The notes under the pieces: model-generated
The model's database searches: none
What the model was told of the DNA's origin: nothing
What the model saw: the letters and a program-made list of their open reading frames with translations, nothing else
Translations under genes and position numbers: made by a program
Shown: one piece after another, positions 43,861 to 52,800 of the stretch
Layout: each line of letters starts with the position of its first letter
How positions within the stretch are numbered: the stretch's first letter is position 1
From: Podarcis pityusensis
Taxonomy: Eukaryota
Strand: one strand, 5' to 3'
Length of the DNA: 64,000 nt
NCBI GenBank assembly: GCA_964106645.2
Contig: OZ067045.1

Positions 43861-44383
43861 TTTGTATGCCATTGATCTTCACATCTGGCTCTTGAGTAAA
43901 CTTATTTATGTTTTATAAAGGGAAGGTATGCAATTCAGAGGAGTGGAGGTTGTTCAAATGAAATAAACCTTTACCTGAAAATTCAGTACTTCAGATGCTA
44001 GTCTGTTGCATGAAAAACAACAAAACCATGTGGCATCTTAAGAGGGCTGAATCAAGACCATGATGGTCCCTGGGCCAGCAGCCTGTAGTGGGTACCCTAC
44101 TCTACTCCCAACTCTAGAGTCCCATGTACGACATCTTGGGCATGTGAACACACTCACACAAAGAAAAAGCATGTTATGTGCAACGATGGGGTGGTAAGCT
44201 CTACTCACAGTCAGATTAATGGGCCTAAGTTATGTCCATTGATTTCAGTAGGTTTACTGTGAGCAGTGCTTAGTTGGATACAAGCCATGTAGGAAACATT
44301 TCTACATATCTTAAAGCAGGGGCAGCCAATGTGGTGCCTCCCAGATGATGTTGGACTGCAGCTGTTGCCATTTGCTGACCATT

Positions 44384-45333
44384 AATCCGTAAACAGACCC
44401 CCGTGTTGCAATATAGACAAGCTGAACAAAATAACACAACACGATGGCCAATAACAATGGCACAGAACACTACTGTATTTATAGACTAATCCAAATGATC
44501 AGAAATTGCAACCAGTCTCTAAATCTTCACCAGTCGTGGCAGAGTAATTCAAAAGTTTGATATATACATAATCTTGATGAAGAATTGATTAAGATTGGCT
44601 GATGAAGCATTGAATGAAACAGATTGGTTATCCAGAAACTTCTGTTCCAGCGATATTTGATGACAGATTATGGGACGCGGATGGCGCTGTGGGTTAAACC
44701 ACAGAACCTAGGACTTGCCAATCAGAAGGTCGGCAGTTCAAATCCTCGCGACGGAGTGAGCTCCCATTGCTCGGTCCCTGCTCCTGCCAACCCAGCAGTT
44801 CGAAAGCACATCCAAGTGCAAGTAGATAAATAGGTACCGCTCTGGCAGGAGGGAGTGCTTAGGGGATGCGGGTGGCGCTGTGGGTTAAACCACAGAGCCT
44901 AGGACTTGCCGATCAGAAGGTCGGCAGTTCAAATCCTCGTGACGGAGTGAGCTCCCATTGCTCGGTCCCTGCTCCTGCCAACCCAGCAGTTCGAAAGCAC
45001 ATCCAAGTGCAAGTAGATAAATAGGTACCACTCTGGCGGGAAGGTAAGCGGCGTTTCCGTGCGCTGCTCTGGTTCGCCAGAAGCGGCTTAGTCATGCTGG
45101 CCACATGACCTGGAAGCTGTACGCCGGCTCCCTTTGGCCAATAAAGCGAGATGAGCGCTGCAACCCCAGTTGGCCATGACTGGACCTAATGGTCAGGGGT
45201 CCCTTTACCTTTACCTATGTATATATCAAACTTTTGAATTGTTCTGCTGTGACTGGTGAAGGTTTAGATTAAATAGTGATTAAATAGTGTTAATGCCATT
45301 GTTATTGGCCATTGTGTTGTGTTATTTTGTTCA
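44384..45333 (+). mobile_element. Penelope-like insertion with inverted arms and 14-bp TSD, split by a SINE
   Basis: TSD ATTTGCTGACCATT (44370 and 45334); inverted arms 44423-44574 vs 44665-44671+45217-45333; CTGATGA...GAAAC core between the arms. Confidence 0.62.
44672..45216 (+). mobile_element. Sauria SINE with internal duplication and chimeric insert
   Basis: The 5' half is repeated (44672-44846, then from about 44862); tail ACCTTTACCT. Confidence 0.92.
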
Positions 45334-46141
45334 ATTTGCTGACCATTGGCCATGCTTGCTGGGACCAATGGCAACAGCAGCCCACAACATCTGGAGGGAA
45401 CCGAGCTGGCTGCATCTTCTGCACTTCACCGGAAGCAAGACTGGAAAGGCCCCCTTCACACATTTGTTGTGCCACGGGGTCTTCTTCAGTGCAAGCACTG
45501 GCCTCACCCCTGGTGCTACGTGGATTTCCTGGCCCTCTTCCAACCTGCACATGCTGGATGTTGCCACCTGCCTCAGGGACGCCTGCCTGATTCTCCTGCT
45601 GCCTATGTCCAGGGTGTGGCCATTATGGCGGAGGCTGGGGAAAGGGCAGCGTCTGGAGCACGGCCAGCAGCATGTTCACTGGCCCCTTGCTCTGGTGGAG
45701 CCCCCTTTGCACAGTTGACACATGAAAGGGGCTTGACACATCCCCAAAGGGAGCAGGGGTGATGTGCTGCCTCCTGCCTCCACTCGACCCCCTTCCACAT
45801 GAGGGGCACAGCCTCTTGCTCTTCTGCTGCCTCAGGTGGCTGCTTCATTCCGCCTAATGGGTGGGCCGGCTCTGGTTCTTTGGCAACTTTTCTTCGCTAG
45901 AATCCCTGTTTTTACCTCTGCAGCACAGAGCTGTGAAATGCCACTCAAATGCGTTCCAGGAAATGCTCCGAGCTGTGAGAGGAGAAGTGGCCTCCCTCGT
46001 GCTTTTTTGTTACAGGCTGCAGGGAGAGGAGGTGGCTACGCTACCGAGCACTGCAGGGGGGCCTTCTCCCGAGGAGACATGCATAGGGTGGCGCTGCAGG
46101 TGCCTGATCCTCTCCAAACATAACTCCAACAAGCACACCCT

Positions 46142-46500
46142 AAAAGGTAAAGGTAAAGGGACCCCTGACCATTAGGTCCAGTCGTGGCCGACTCTGGGGT
46201 TGCGGTGCTCATCTTGCTTTACTGGCCGAGGGAGCCGGCATACAGCTTCCGGGTCATGTGGCCAGCATGACTAAGCCGCTTCTGGCGAACAAGAGCAGCG
46301 CACGGAAACGCCGTTTACCTTCCCGCCGGAGAGGTACCTATTTATCTACTTGCACTTTGACGTGCTTTCGAACTGCTAGGTTGGCAGGAGCAGGGACCGA
46401 GCAACGGGCGCTCACCCCGTCTCGAGGATTCGAACCGCCGACCTTCTGATCGGCAAGTCCTAGGCTCTGTGGTTTAACCCACAGCGCCACCCGCATCCCC
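46142..46500 (-). mobile_element. Sauria SINE abutting the DGUOK CpG island
   Basis: Reverse copy; TSD aagcac(a/t)ccct (46131 and 46502). Confidence 0.92.
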
Positions 46501-46870
46501 TAAGCACTCCCTCCTGCCCCGCAAATGGCCGCCCGCGGGAGTACTGCTGCCCCGAGCTGGCGGAGCCCAGCGCCGGAACCAAGTGAACTGGGCCCCTTTG
46601 GGCGGCGGGCTCCGGAAAGACACGAGCGACTTCGGCAGGGCGGGGGCGCAGGCGCAATAGCGGGGCTGCGCCTCCCGACAGCTGGGCGCTGGGTGGCGCT
46701 GCTCTGCGCGATGGCTGCGGCGCGGGAGGCCGGCAAGAGGCTCGCCATCGAGGGAAACATTGGTAATGGGTCTGGGGACGGGGGGCAGGAGGAGCTCGGG
46801 GGTCTTTCCTTCCATTGTATGTCGGCAGCGCCGTCCTGCGACTTGGAAGCGCCCGTCCAGCCGGAGGTGG
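46490..46870. promoter_or_regulatory. DGUOK: DGUOK CpG-island promoter
   Basis: Very GC- and CpG-rich. GC box GGGCGGGG at about 46638, NRF1-like GCGCAGGCGCA at 46646-46656, ETS-like CCGGAA sites, YY1-like AAATGGCCGCC at 46523. Confidence 0.8.
46711..46762 (+). CDS. DGUOK: DGUOK exon 1 coding part
   Basis: [18 protein letters not shown]|gtaatg; 5' boundary uncertain. Confidence 0.8.
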
Positions 46871-49800
46871 GGGGGGGGGGGAGGAACTCTGCACTTGCTT
46901 AGAGGCAGCCTTATTATTGCCTTGGTCGCTCGGGCCCTTGCACGGTTGCAGGAGATATGCCTTAGGAGCAATGCTCCGCCCCATTCCCCGTCTTGCTCCA
47001 GTTGGGGAAGACGCGCAGTCTCGGGCTTTGGCGAACCTCCAGGGAAGATCTTGGTTGGGTGGGTGGTGATTGATTTATTTACTATATTTCTATGCTGCTT
47101 TTCATTCAGATGAATAGCAGTCGGTTACAAACAGTAAATAACATTCCAAACTCAACGCAAATCATATAGAACAGATAACAGATCATAAGTAAAACTATTA
47201 CAATCCATATAGCACCATCAACTAAAAAGGTTAAAGCATGAACTGGAGCCTCCGCGAGTGTTCAGAAGTGAATGGAACTTGGTGGTGGTGGTTGCAAGAG
47301 CGCTGTTAGGTTGGGCAGTATTATTACACCCCATAATATGCAGAAAGGGAGTGGGGCCAGGGTGAGGTGCCAAGTGGGTCACATGCACACCATACGTTTG
47401 AAGCACATGGCATCCGAATCCTGGGAACTGTGGTCGCTTAAGAGTGCTGGGTATTGTAGCTCCTTGAGGAGCAAACTACAGGTCCCAGGATTCTTTATCC
47501 AATAAGGTGAGTGTTGGAAGATTCAGGACAGGGGAAAAAAATGCCCTCCTTCATGCAGCATGTAGTTTAACTATGGAACTCACTTCCACAGGAGGCAGCA
47601 GTGGTCACCAACTAGGTAAAGGTAAAGGTAAAGGTACCCCTGCCCGTACGGGCCAGTCGTGTCCGACTCTAGGGTTGTGCGCTCATCTCACTTAAGAGGC
47701 CGGGGGCCAGCGCTGTCTGGAGACACTTCTGGGTCACGTGGCCAGCGTGACGAAGCTGCTCTGGCGATCCAGCACCAGCGCAGCACACGGAAACGCCGTT
47801 TACCTTCCCGCTATAAAGCGGTACCTATTTATCTACTTGCACTTAGGGGTGCTTTCGAACTGCTAGGTGGGCAGGAGCTGGGACCGAAAGACGGGAGCTC
47901 ACCCCGCCGCGGGGATTCGAACCGCCAACCATACGATCGGCAAGTCCTAGGCACTGAGGTTTTACCCACAGCGCCACCCGCGTCCCTGCTTAAAATTTAT
48001 ATACTGCTTGACTGAAACCCCCACCCACCCTCAGAGCTGTTTGCCAGAATGATTCTTAGGGGGAAGCCATGTGCTCCAAGTATGTGGTGTGATTGTTACA
48101 TCCCATCTCCACGGCTCATTCTCTGCACAACGTAAGCAGAATGAGGTTGCTTTTCCTTTTGCTGATATTTGGAAACGCAGTATAAGGAGGAATGTTGACT
48201 AATGGGCATACGTGCTTTTTGCTCCGCCAGCGGTGGGGAAGTCAACGTTTGTGAGAGTGCTCAGAAAAGCCTTTCCAGAATGGTCCATGATCTCGGAGCC
48301 AGTGTCCAAGTGGCAGAAAGTTCAAGCTGCTGGTCCCCACCAGGTAAGAGTCCAGATGTAAAACTTGTTTGGTCTGTAAGGAACTGAGCTATTTTGGTTC
48401 AGAATATTGTATTCAATCAACTGGGAGTTCTTCTTCAGTACAAGAATTCTGAGCAAAGGGGAAACTTGCCTTCTTACCAAAATAATCATTCAGATAAAAT
48501 AACCATTCACTCTCGTGCAACTTCCTTTGGCACCAAAGAGTATTCACCCGCTTTGTGCTAAAGCAGGCTTCCTCAAACTCAGCCCTCCAGATGTTTTGAG
48601 ACTACAGTTCCCATCATCCCTGACCACTGGTCCTGCCTAGCTAGGGATCATGGGAGTTGTAAGCCAGAAATATCTGGAGGGCCGAGTTTGAGGAAGCCTG
48701 TGCTAAAGGTTATAAGAACACCAGTAGAGCCTGCCGGATCAGGCCAATGACCCATTGAGTCCAGCATCCTGTTCTCCCTGTGGCCAAGCAGATGCCTGTG
48801 GAAAACCTTCCAGCAGGGAACGACTGCAAGAGCAGCCCTCTCTCCTCCTGTGGTTTCCAGGAGCTGGTGTTCAGAAGCGTTGCCGCCTCCGACTGGGCAG
48901 GCAGAGCACTGCCATCATGGCTTATATAGCCACAAATAGCCTTATCTTCCTGAATCTTCCAACGTTTGGCTCCCCTGAATGCCTACGAATTTTAGTGTTC
49001 TGAGAGAGGTAGAAAAATATTTCTCTATCCACTTTCTCCATACCATGCATGATTTTATAAAGTTCAAAAAAACTTCTATAAAGATTTTTAAAGACTCCAC
49101 CCATCCCCTATGCTGTTCCTTATGTGCTTCCATTTATCCCAGCTTGCTGGCTGGGACTGAAAGGAGTCCAAAACATCTGGAGGGCACCAAGTGGGAGAAG
49201 GTTGAGCTGGAGGGAGGCGAAGAGAAGAGGAACCTTGCAATATCTTCACATGGCACAGGTTCACAGGCCCTGCTGTGGCCTCCCCCCAGAAAACACGCAC
49301 TTTGTTTTGTGGTTCCTTTTCCGTTCGGTTCTTAAATGTTTGTCTCTTAAATTATTCCCCGTCACAGGCCTCTCCTTCTCAGAGCTTTGCAAACCTGCTT
49401 CAAATGATGTATCAGGAACCCTCGCGATGGTCCTACACATTCCAGACTTACTCATGCCTGAGTCGGCTGAAGGCGCAGCTGGAGCCTCTGTCTGTCAAGC
49501 CCCTGAAGATGTGGGACCATGTGCGGGTTTTTGAGAGATCTATATACAGTGATAGGTATGGTGCCACAGTCCTGTTCCTGAAGTTGGCAGCAGCAGCAGC
49601 AGCAACAGTGAGATGGGGCCACAGGCCAAGAGAAGTGGGGAGATGTTTGCCTTTTGAAAGAACTGTACACCCCCTTTTGAAATGTTCTCAAGTATTCAGT
49701 GCCCCCTCTCCATGTGCAGAGTGCTCTGCAGTTTCTTCCCACGCTTTCATTGTTGTTGAATGTCCTTGCAGTTCCTTCCAACTTATAATTGGGGAAACTA

Positions 49801-52800
49801 AGGATGGTGCCCCCTTAGCAAGGAAAGCTTTGCCATTCCTTCCATTGGAGCCTCTTCCCCACAAGGAAGAGGAAAACCTTCCATTTTGTAATGATGAATG
49901 GATGCCAATTGCAAATACAATATTTGGGAAGCTTGGCAGTTTCGCATTTATCTCTGACTTGCCTGTTCTTCTTCCTGTGTTTGTTGCTGTGCGGGTGGTT
50001 TAACTACATGGTCCTCCCCCAGGTACGTCTTTGCCAAAAACCTGTTTGAGATTGGCCACCTGGCAGAGATTGAGTGGGCAATTTACCAGGACTGGCACAC
50101 TTTTCTCCAACAAGCATTCGGGGACCAGCTTGACATCCATGGCTTCCTTTATCTACGGGCACCTCCAGAGGTAACTGGAAACCTCTGTTATATTTATTAG
50201 ACACTTCGCCACCTCCCACCCTCAAAAATGAAAGTCAAAGTGATTTACAAAAATGAAGATTGAAAGCAAGTTTTAAGCCAGATGGTTCACTCATGTAGGA
50301 AACTGCCTGCTACATCTCTGTCCGAGTCATTGCTCTGGCTGCCTCACCTTCTACTCTGCTGAAGGCAGGTAAATCGGCAGGCTTGTTGCATTGGATGTGA
50401 ATGGATCCTTCAAAGTTGGTGCCCTGGGTGCACCTTCTCCCAGTCAGGAAGCATGTCCGTGAAGGTTTGGGTGGGCTTCTTTAATCATAGAATTTTAGAG
50501 GTGAAAGGGACCCAGTGGGTCATCTAGTCCAACCCCCTGCAATGCAGGAATCAAGGCAAGTTTTGACTTGTATACATCAGCAGTGGCTCTGCTTTGTTAG
50601 CCCAGGGGCCACATTTTGTACCAGCAAGTTCTCCAGGGGCCGCAGTACGTGTTAGGCATTGTCTGAAAAGTCGGTGTGATGACCAACACACCTGCGCATA
50701 TGTGTGCGCACACATCAGAACACCACACATGCAACGCACATCACACCACTGAGCACTCATGCAAAGCAGAGATTGTGAAGGAGGGGATGGTACTTGGTTG
50801 TTCCAGCTAGAAACACAGCAATTTTCTCCATTGCAACCCAGAACGCTTTTCCAATTCAAGAGGGAGAACGGAGAAGACCATGGAAAGGGAAAGCCACGAG
50901 AGAGTTAGTGTGGCCAGCCAGGTGCCTTTGGGAAATCCACAAGCAGGATTAATAATAATAATAATTATTATTTATACCCTGCCCTCCCCGGCCAGGCTCA
51001 GGGCGGCTAACACCAATAAAATCACAGTAAAAACTTAATAGGGGGAAAAGAGGGGGGGGGGGGAGGAAAAAAACACCCAATTAAAATACAGGTTAAAATG
51101 CAATTTAAAATGCAGCCTCATTTTAAAGTAGCTGATAAATCAAGACTATAAGGGGAGGGAAACATGAGGGTCAGACTGAGTCCAAACCAAAGGCTGGGTG
51201 GAACAGCTCTGTCTTGCAGGCCCTGCGGAAAGATGTCAAGTCCCGCATTGCCCTAGTCTCTTGTGACAGAGCGTTCCACCACGTTGGGGCCAGTGCTGAA
51301 GAGGCCCTGGCCCTAGTTGAGACCAATCTAACCTCCTTGAGGCTCGGCACCTCCGAAGCGTTGTTATTTGTGGACCTTAAGGTCCTCCGCGGGGCTTACC
51401 AGGAGAGGCGGTCCCGTAGGTACGAGGGCCAATGAATTTCCCTTTCCCTCCTTTCAGATCTGCATGGAAAGATTGCGCCAAAGAGGGAGGCCTGAAGAGA
51501 AGGAGGTCCAGCTGCGCTACCTGGAGCAGCTTCACACTCAGCACGAACATTGGCTCATGGAGAAGAGCACAGAGTAAGTCACAGGCGGAGCAGCAGAGAG
51601 CTGGCTTCAGTGGGAAGGCAGTTGTGGCTCTGCAGGGAGCGCCTGCTCTCTGCGCTTGAGCCTCTTCATTTTGGTTGCACGCGGTTGTGTCACGTGGCAG
51701 GTGTATGTTGGTGCCAGAGCACCTGCCTGATTCCACACGGAAGAGAGAAGCATACAGCCAAGCCACAGTTCCCCTTCACCTGGAGATGAGGATGAGGATT
51801 TACATCCCACCTTCTTTCCTTCGAGGATCTCAAGGCGATGTATGTGGTCCTCTCGCTCCCTGTTTTATTCTCACAACAACTCTGTGAAGTGGGTTCGGCT
51901 CCAAGACAGTGACTGGCCCAAGGCTTCTGAGTGAGGATTCGTATCCAGGTCTCCCAGGTCCTTGTCCAACACTTTAACTGCTAAACATTACTGCTGCTGG
52001 GCTATGATGCTGAACAGCAGAAAGGGCCAAAAGGAACCAGGAAGTCTTGGTAGCACAGAAATGGGTGGGCTAAAGACCACGAAGTGCAGGAGGGCAGCTG
52101 TGTACAGACGGGTGCTGTGTCCTGGGCTGCGCGCAACTCGGGCCCCAAAATAAGATACGTGGCAGGCAGCATTTGGAAATGGGCCATGGGGTGTATTTGC
52201 CATTCGCTTCCCAACCAGAATCCTTAACAGTCTCTTGCTCACCAGACACAATTAGTGGGCTCTGGATCACTCAAGAGCAGCTTTCCTAACAGTAAGTCAG
52301 GCCTGATCCAGATTACTCTTTTATGATTAATTTGGGATTACTTATTGGCAGAATTTTTATCCTTTCCCATTGTCACAGTTTACAGGCCACTACTGTGTTA
52401 GTTGCAGTGTTGTTGCAAACCAGAGAGAGGCTGGAAGTTTCCGTTCTGCAGTGGGAGCGATGTGTGAAATCACAAGCTAGCTCAGCCTTCTCCAACTTTG
52501 TGCCCTCCCCATGTTTTAAGCTGCAACTCCTATCAGCTCCAGCTAACATGGCTGTGCTCCCATCAACTCTGGCACACTGGCTGGGGCCGATGGGAGTTGA
52601 AGACCCAAATCTCCGGAGGGCATCAAGTTGGGAAAGGCTGCTCTAGGGATTAAGTCGTCATCATCCTTTATTTTTTATTCATTCTGTTCCATTTATGAAT
52701 GCTTCCTGTAGTGACTAAGAATAAAAACAAGTTTGTATATTTTAAACAAGTTCAAAGCCAATCCATGCGCAGACTGGGATAAAAATCTCTACTGCACTTC

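What the first reader, a model, noticed from the sequence alone, without database searches (positions are those of the whole stretch)
44672..46518. Template-switch scar: DGUOK-promoter flank copied into a neighbouring inverted SINE
Seen in sequence: SINE A (+, from 44672) breaks off at ...ggtaccgctctggc. It continues with GGCAGGAGGGAGTGCTTAGGGGATGCGG (44844-44871), the exact reverse complement of 46491-46518. That stretch is the non-SINE flank (TSD plus unique DGUOK-promoter DNA) and head of inverted SINE B, 1.6 kb away. The next ~55 nt carry B-specific bases (gATgcggG, gaGccta, gccGatc). From ~44926 the sequence reverts to A-specific bases (cAgttcAaat, ggAgtgag, cccAttg, cCcagcag, cacATCcaag), duplicating ~120 bp of A. 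The break point has microhomology (SINE ggcgggaagg vs flank ggcaggaggg). Inference: a two-jump replication template switch (FoSTeS/MMBIR-like) or gene-conversion-type repair between inverted SINEs, A to B to A. A second retrotransposition is unlikely because it would not carry upstream flank.
Basis: partly seen in the sequence, partly recalled or inferred. Interest (0 to 1): 0.72.

Follow-up and report, generated by a model that had tools for sequence, protein, structure and literature searches.

The report
SINE repair scars capture neighbours' flanks
A short repeat beside a DGUOK-like gene has part of its front half doubled around 18 bases copied from the flank of a neighbouring repeat; five more such scars with donors 25-57 kb away and one copy of the same junction on another contig occur in this genome, likely left by error-prone DNA break repair between repeats.

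Summary
The scar is in the assembly. SINE A (44672-45216) breaks at its position 173, continues with an 82-nt exact reverse complement of SINE B's 5' flank and head (46518-46437), then returns to A's own alleles, duplicating 109-123 bp.

Two new results. (1) The identical junction sits on another contig (C13) inside a host of another subfamily, so the story is not purely local. (2) It belongs to a recurrent class: in 5 of 7 other composites whose spacer was searched, the spacer is the 5' flank (17-105 nt) of a SINE 25-57 kb away on the same contig, joined by 1-4 bp microhomology, with donors inverted (3) or direct (2).

Best reading (0.6): homology-started ectopic DNA repair that overshoots the donor's 5' end and rejoins by microhomology; the C13 copy likely took A's junction secondarily. 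Main rival (0.25): RNA-templated repair by the LINE reverse transcriptase. No independent read or contig spanning the junction was found. Verdict: new variant of a known kind; interest 0.6.

The parts
44672..44843 (+). Host SINE A, unit 1 (SINE positions 2-173)
44844..44846 (+). 3-bp microhomology shared by host position 174-176 and B's flank (8 of 10 over 44844-44853)
44844..44861 (+). Captured 5' flank of SINE B: 6 unique bases, 11-nt head-side TSD, 1 base
44862..44925 (+). B-derived SINE head; the return to host lies between 44912 and 44925
44926..45034 (+). Host-type duplicate of 44735-44843 (at least 109 bp; 9 sites match unit 1, 2 private CpG changes)
45035..45216 (+). Single 3' half and tail of SINE A; no outer remainder follows, so this is not a nested insertion
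44669..44672 (+). Left copy of A's short 3-4 bp TSD (right copy 45216-45219); it encloses the whole composite
46437..46518 (-). Donor segment: B flank plus head, 82-nt exact match to 44844-44925
46145..46500 (-). SINE B, donor; keeps 26 of 32 family CpGs (3 of 45 copies as high)
46502..46512 (-). B head-side TSD (tail-side copy 46131-46141, 1 mismatch)
   Evidence: sequence
46711..46762 (+). Likely first coding exon of the DGUOK-like gene, in a CpG-rich stretch; dNK exons at 49383-49559, 50015-50173, 51455-51568
44322..45413 (.). Palindromic MITE-like element in whose spacer A is inserted (arms about 44423-44569 / 45217-45333 and 44322-44372 / 45367-45413); type recalled, not tested

Best explanation
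SINE A carries a 109-123 bp duplication of its own sequence around an 82-nt tract copied from neighbouring SINE B (18 bases of flank plus head), likely made when a broken DNA end in A's head paired with B by SINE homology, was extended past B's 5' end, and was rejoined by 3 bp of microhomology to a second end lying further down A. Shown: the anatomy, the donor, the host alleles shared by both units, five further loci with a donor within 57 kb, and the same junction on C13. Inferred: that the template was DNA; that the first switch was by homology and the second by microhomology (SDSA or one-sided invasion ended by theta-type joining, or an MMBIR-like fork restart); that the overlap came from staggered nicks or two chromatids; and that the C13 SINE later repaired a break using A's junction, which offers long homology on both sides.
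For: Host alleles in both units date the event after A aged in place; no source copy with A's full haplotype was found. Spacers were traced to a SINE 5' flank on the same contig in 5 of 7 other composites searched: L084 from L089, 57 kb, inverted, 18 nt; L094 from L125, 36 kb, direct, 79 nt; L101 from L127, 46 kb, direct, 27 nt; L097 from L130, 50 kb, inverted, 17 nt; L103 from L133, 25 kb, inverted, 105 nt. Flank mismatches are 0-1 and microhomology 1-4 bp. A random donor would lie within 57 kb with probability 7.5e-5 each. Flank length varies, which argues against a fixed RNA 5' end. Control: of 18 heads in 284 kb, only the A2/B pair shares a flank with another head; a third recurrence is a local palindrome. 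No flank-bearing full retrocopy of B was found, and its two haplotype siblings lack B's other private bases. The C13 host has the 3-bp-insertion subfamily allele in both units, which A and B lack (433 pattern hits), so it is not a retrocopy of A or B. Alu interlocus conversion is reported to fall with distance, with a mean tract of 118 bp (10.1101/241356, passages).
Against: The C13 copy is in trans while all 6 traced donors are in cis; picking A from about 1e5 copies (rough estimate) is a priori rare. Its units differ more (8 in about 155 bp) than A's (2 in 108 bp), the wrong way round if A is the donor, though not significantly (p = 0.21). Four of the 6 cis junctions fall at host positions 166-182, where nested retro-insertions also cluster (L016-L018, L086, L087); this hints at the LINE endonuclease, though my patterns favoured junctions beyond position 160. 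A return point upstream of the departure point was seen in 0 of 794 short human-chimp template switches, in repeat-masked DNA (PMC5453318, section read). Two spacers were not traced (L056, L058). No listed contig piece in 4 runs spans the junction.
Confidence: 0.6

Rival explanations
1. RNA-templated repair. A nick in the host's antisense strand would anneal by SINE homology to a transcript that reads through the donor in sense (for B, a divergent transcript of the DGUOK-like promoter). The Bov-B-type reverse transcriptase would extend it into the flank, and the cDNA end would be captured by microhomology at the host's nick-prone position 165-185. Nascent RNA would act nearby; released B RNA with a fixed 5' end would give the same junction on C13.
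For: It explains an identical junction on two contigs. Junctions cluster where nested insertions cluster. B lies at a CpG-rich promoter edge and keeps its CpGs. All captures found are head-side, although only these were searched. L057 looks like a 3'-truncated SINE with its own 7-bp duplication, as internal priming would leave.
Against: 6 of 6 traced donors lie within 57 kb. Flank lengths vary from 17 to 105 nt. Some donors are CpG-decayed old copies (L089). No flank-bearing retrocopy of B was found. Duplications over 100 bp are far longer than the 11-14 bp TSDs of ordinary copies here. No RNA data were examined.
Confidence: 0.25
2. Nested retro-insertion of a flank-bearing donor RNA into the host, later trimmed by recombination with the empty allele or homogenised by conversion from unit 1.
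For: Five unresolved nested insertions at the same host position exist. L084, L085 and L093 have unlike units. A2's two private changes fall on the CpGs where B also differs.
Against: It needs two or three steps at each locus. No unresolved nested copy with B's flank was found (2 hits, both resolved). It does not explain donors within 57 kb.
Confidence: 0.07
3. Assembly artefact: the duplications are haplotype merges or chimeric reads.
For: No listed contig piece spans the junction in X19, X1, X2 or X20 (32 of about 44,700 pieces shown; such contigs drop rare paths).
Against: The same junction lies in two hosts with different private alleles. The C13 units differ by opposite-strand decay of one CpG. 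Host TSDs enclose the composites. Five more loci have the same logic, two with 1 mismatch to the donor flank.
Confidence: 0.04

Closest known systems
FoSTeS / MMBIR (PMC4888836, passages)
   Same: Switch to a nearby template, short copy, return to the original with a few bases of microhomology, leaving a duplication.
   Different: Here one junction lies within 92-97% SINE homology and only the other is microhomologous; the events are under 300 bp; one junction recurs on another contig.
One-sided invasion / SDSA finished by end joining (term and Puchta 1998 cited in PMC9299229, passages; Belmaaza and Chartrand 1994 seen only as a reference entry; mechanism detail recalled)
   Same: One end is repaired by homology and runs beyond it, and the other junction is non-homologous.
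   Different: Seen here as fixed scars at natural SINE pairs, with a host duplication of 100 bp or more.
Alu interlocus gene conversion (10.1101/241356, abstract and passages)
   Same: SINE-to-SINE copying that favours near neighbours, with tracts around 100 bp.
   Different: That scan concerns tracts inside the element; here the tract leaves the element, carries the donor's TSD and flank, and lengthens the host.
Four-point short template switch (PMC5453318, passages and one results section)
   Same: A fits the formal model: a reverse-complement copy of a nearby segment between two switches.
   Different: Return upstream of departure was never seen among 794 events (repeats masked); distances here are 1.6-57 kb; 2 of 6 donors are in direct orientation.
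Sauria SINE retrotransposition by Bov-B (PMC13295347, outline, results and section 4.1)
   Same: (ACCTTT)n tail; TSDs; the C13 host TSD starts with TA 10 bases after a T run, as in the reported Tn-TA signature.
   Different: The captured segment has no tail or TSD of its own and sits inside an older copy.

Membership tests
FoSTeS/MMBIR-type templated rearrangement | Inserted segment templated from nearby genomic sequence | tested here: met
   82-nt exact match at 1.6 kb; 5 further donors at 25-57 kb
FoSTeS/MMBIR-type templated rearrangement | Microhomology at the switch junction | tested here: inconclusive
   1-4 bp at all 6 entry junctions, but such matches are common by chance, and the return junction lies in long homology
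FoSTeS/MMBIR-type templated rearrangement | Arises at a stalled or collapsed fork on a DNA template | not testable with these tools
   Sequence cannot separate fork restart, break repair and RNA templates
One-sided invasion / overshooting SDSA | One homologous junction and one non-homologous junction, with copying beyond the shared homology | tested here: met
   Return inside the SINE homology; 17-105 nt of donor flank copied
One-sided invasion / overshooting SDSA | Donor left unchanged (non-reciprocal) | tested here: met
   B and the five other donors are single full SINEs, each with a TSD-like repeat on both sides
Simple interlocus gene conversion | Tract confined to homology, no length change | tested here: not met
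   191-bp gain with foreign flank
Nested SINE insertion by TPRT | Inner element with its own tail and TSD, outer remainder following | tested here: not met
   No remainder at A or L003, unlike L016-L018, L086, L087
5'-extended SINE subfamily | Many copies share the 5' extension and a body haplotype | tested here: not met
   3 places only, and their bodies differ
RNA-templated repair by LINE reverse transcriptase | Sense transcript over the donor; head-side-only polarity | not tested
   No RNA run examined; the tail-side mirror class was not surveyed
Sauria SINE | Match to the family consensus | not tested

The most novel reading that the evidence does not exclude
Old SINE copies prime reverse transcription on nascent transcripts of neighbouring SINEs, so the LINE enzyme acts as a local RNA-templated repair polymerase in the germ line. 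The divergent RNA of the DGUOK-like promoter, with a fixed 5' end, wrote the same 18-base flank into two hosts on different contigs.
Probability: 0.22. Interest if true: 0.85.

Novelty: new variant of a known kind. Interest (0 to 1): 0.6.

Why it matters
The captured flank is a barcode that names the donor unambiguously. These scars therefore give direct donor-recipient distances and orientations for ectopic repair between SINEs in a vertebrate germ line, something within-element conversion scans must infer statistically. They make one open question testable in any good assembly: DNA or RNA template, by the presence or absence of a tail-side mirror class. They also show a route to dimeric SINEs and to moving promoter-edge sequence without retrotransposition. 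The single locus has no evident function.

Tried and rejected
Contigs of 5 public runs: B's flank and head are present in X19, X1 and X20, part of B's head in X3, and A's left edge in X2. No listed piece spans the junction; this was not taken as absence, since such contigs drop rare paths.

Subfamily extension: rejected (3 places). C13 as a retrocopy of A or B: rejected (subfamily allele in both units). A sibling source for C13: only L055, which lacks 3 of its 4 shared alleles. A circle cut from B itself: disfavoured, since both hosts have T where B has C at position 173. A fixed 17-18 nt overshoot, suggested by A and L084: dropped after flanks of 27, 79 and 105 nt turned up. Hairpin fold-back as the general mechanism: dropped (2 direct donors).

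L056 spacer: part of a MITE-like repeat with 72 hits; in 19 loci examined (itself included) no other has a SINE head behind it. L058 spacer: self only. L085: no close donor within 100 kb either side. Two breakpoint windows gave 0 hits, but those patterns miss decayed copies (L093 and L101 were missed). Earlier findings: none. Literature: 10 searches listed no paper on flank-capturing SINE dimers, judged by titles and abstract starts; most subscription papers are outside that library, and no supplements were read.

Full report
Observation. SINE A begins at 44672, runs to its position 173 (44843) and continues with an exact 82-nt reverse complement of 46518-46437, the 5' flank and head of inverted SINE B. 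The first 18 bases are non-SINE: 6 unique bases, B's head-side TSD in its head-side version, and one more base. From 44926 the second unit matches unit 1 and not B at 9 sites; at 2 CpG sites it is private. The return to A therefore lies between 44912 and 44925, and 109-123 bp of A are doubled. A 3-4 bp TSD encloses the whole composite, which sits in the spacer of a palindromic element. The gene next to B is a dNK-family gene closest to deoxyguanosine kinase.

Timing (inferred). Both units share 9 derived alleles, an independent chance of about 3e-9. A search for two of A's rare alleles found 5 places: A's two units and 3 copies that lack most of A's other alleles. A therefore aged in place before the duplication.

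A third copy. The 23-nt flank-plus-head string has 3 exact places in the 1.5-Gb assembly: A, B and G000:C13:54,662,253. The C13 locus (L003) has the same layout: a 12-bp TSD round the whole, a partial SINE, the same junction (81 nt identical to A's: 30 left, 51 right) and a full SINE. The junction pattern with up to 3 mismatches finds only these 2 loci. Both C13 units carry a 3-bp-insertion allele found at 433 places, which A and B lack, plus 4 shared alleles of their own. The C13 host is thus neither a retrocopy of A nor of B; the junction was brought into a resident copy. Its units differ at 8 sites against 2 at A (p = 0.21).

A class of events. Six pattern scans for a SINE head following an internal SINE motif returned 25 distinct loci. 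Six are chance or unrelated neighbours (L011, L013, L014, L059, L096, L100). Five are nested insertions with the outer remainder (L016, L017, L018, L086, L087). Fourteen are partial SINE plus head without a remainder. Of the 12 besides A and L003, I searched 7 spacers genome-wide; L092 and L102 were not searched, and L057, L085 and L093 have 7 bases or fewer. Five of the 7 map to the 5' flank of a SINE on the same contig: L084 (57 kb, inverted, 18 nt), L094 (36 kb, direct, 79 nt), L101 (46 kb, direct, 27 nt), L097 (50 kb, inverted, 17 nt, later tripled) and L103 (25 kb, inverted, 105 nt), with 0-1 mismatches and 1-4 bp microhomology. The match stops at the junction, so these are not segmental duplications. 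Host TSDs enclose L084, L094, L097 and L101; L103 has none evident, and its donor tract covers most of the element. The donor tract inside the SINE varies, and in L094, L097 and L101 its end is uncertain because later CpG decay blurs it. L056 and L058 were not traced. A random donor would lie within 57 kb with probability 7.5e-5. In a control of 18 heads in 284 kb, only the A2/B pair shares a flank with another head. The scans catch only copies with intact motifs and favour junctions beyond position 160, so the counts are lower bounds.

Mechanism. Shown: templated, non-reciprocal, local copying that leaves the donor's homology on the head side. Inferred: an antisense-strand end in the host's head invades a nearby SINE, synthesis overshoots into the flank, and the released end anneals by a few bases to a sense-strand end further down the host, doubling the interval. 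The opposite order, microhomology first, gives the same sequence and cannot be told apart here. Both donor orientations occur, so hairpin fold-back is not required, though it may have helped at A; a rare T at SINE position 76 shared by A and B but not by their siblings hints at earlier exchange. For C13 the simplest DNA route is repair on A's junction, which offers long homology on both sides. This step is the weakest, as it is the only trans case. An RNA template explains it better if B's divergent transcript has a fixed 5' end, and it fits the clustering of junctions where nested insertions also cluster. Against it stand the cis donors, the variable flank lengths and the lack of flank-bearing copies of B. 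The tail-side mirror class, which would decide between the two, remains untested.

Reality check. Contigs of public runs show B's flank and head in runs X19, X1 and X20 (two coded organisms), so B is shared and likely predates the events. No listed piece spans the junction. Such contigs show presence, not absence, so independent support is missing. The internal evidence makes an artefact unlikely: two hosts, diverged units, intact TSDs and five analogous loci.

Comparison. It works like FoSTeS/MMBIR and one-sided invasion (PMC4888836 and PMC9299229, passages) and like distance-dependent Alu conversion (10.1101/241356, abstract and passages). It fails the tests for simple conversion, nested insertion and a 5'-extended subfamily. 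The backward return was absent from 794 short switches in repeat-masked human-chimp DNA (PMC5453318, passages and one section). Instability of inverted SINE pairs (PMC3215922, passages) and homologous-to-microhomology hand-over in the germ line (PMC7615360, passages) are background. Ten paper searches listed no description of this class, within a library that lacks most subscription papers.

Verdict. A real-looking scar of a known broad kind, here shown to recur with traceable donors, plus one unexplained hop to another contig. New variant of a known kind; interest 0.6; novel RNA-templated reading 0.22.

Noticed in passing
L003:1310-1880 (G000:C13:54,662,060-54,662,630): Same host/B-flank junction on another contig. 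Unit 1 lacks SINE positions 1-18 and starts with a 7-base purine run that also occurs in B's flank; unexplained.
   Followed up: yes
L016, L017, L018, L086, L087: Nested SINE insertions cluster at host positions about 165-185, suggesting an insertion hotspot inside the SINE.
   Followed up: partly
window 44746, 44937, 46425: Rare T at SINE position 76 shared by A1, A2 and B but not by their haplotype siblings; possible earlier conversion between the inverted pair.
   Followed up: partly
window 44940 and 45030: A2's only two private changes fall on the two CpGs where B also has private bases.
   Followed up: no
L097 (G000:C13:52,496,300-52,497,200): Three tandem SINE units with the same captured 17-nt flank twice; a scar that was later duplicated.
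   Followed up: partly
L057 (G000:C6:5,309,960-5,310,080): 3'-truncated SINE head flanked by a 7-bp repeat directly before a full copy; resembles internal priming.
   Followed up: no
L058, L092, L102, L085, L093: Further partial-plus-full composites with an untraced, unsearched or absent spacer.
   Followed up: partly
window 44322-45413: Palindromic MITE-like element holding SINE A, with an unusually short 3-4 bp TSD for A.
   Followed up: partly
L061-L075: A roughly 230-bp MITE-like repeat family (72 pattern hits); a 32-nt piece of it forms the spacer of L056.
   Followed up: partly
window 46711-46762: The likely first coding exon of the DGUOK-like gene is short and shows no long N-terminal leader before the P-loop (comparison with the human leader is recalled).
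   Followed up: no
listing, G000:C13:50.7-55.1 Mb: Listed copies with the 3-bp-insertion allele are dense near contig ends, especially distal C13; may be a listing bias.
   Followed up: no
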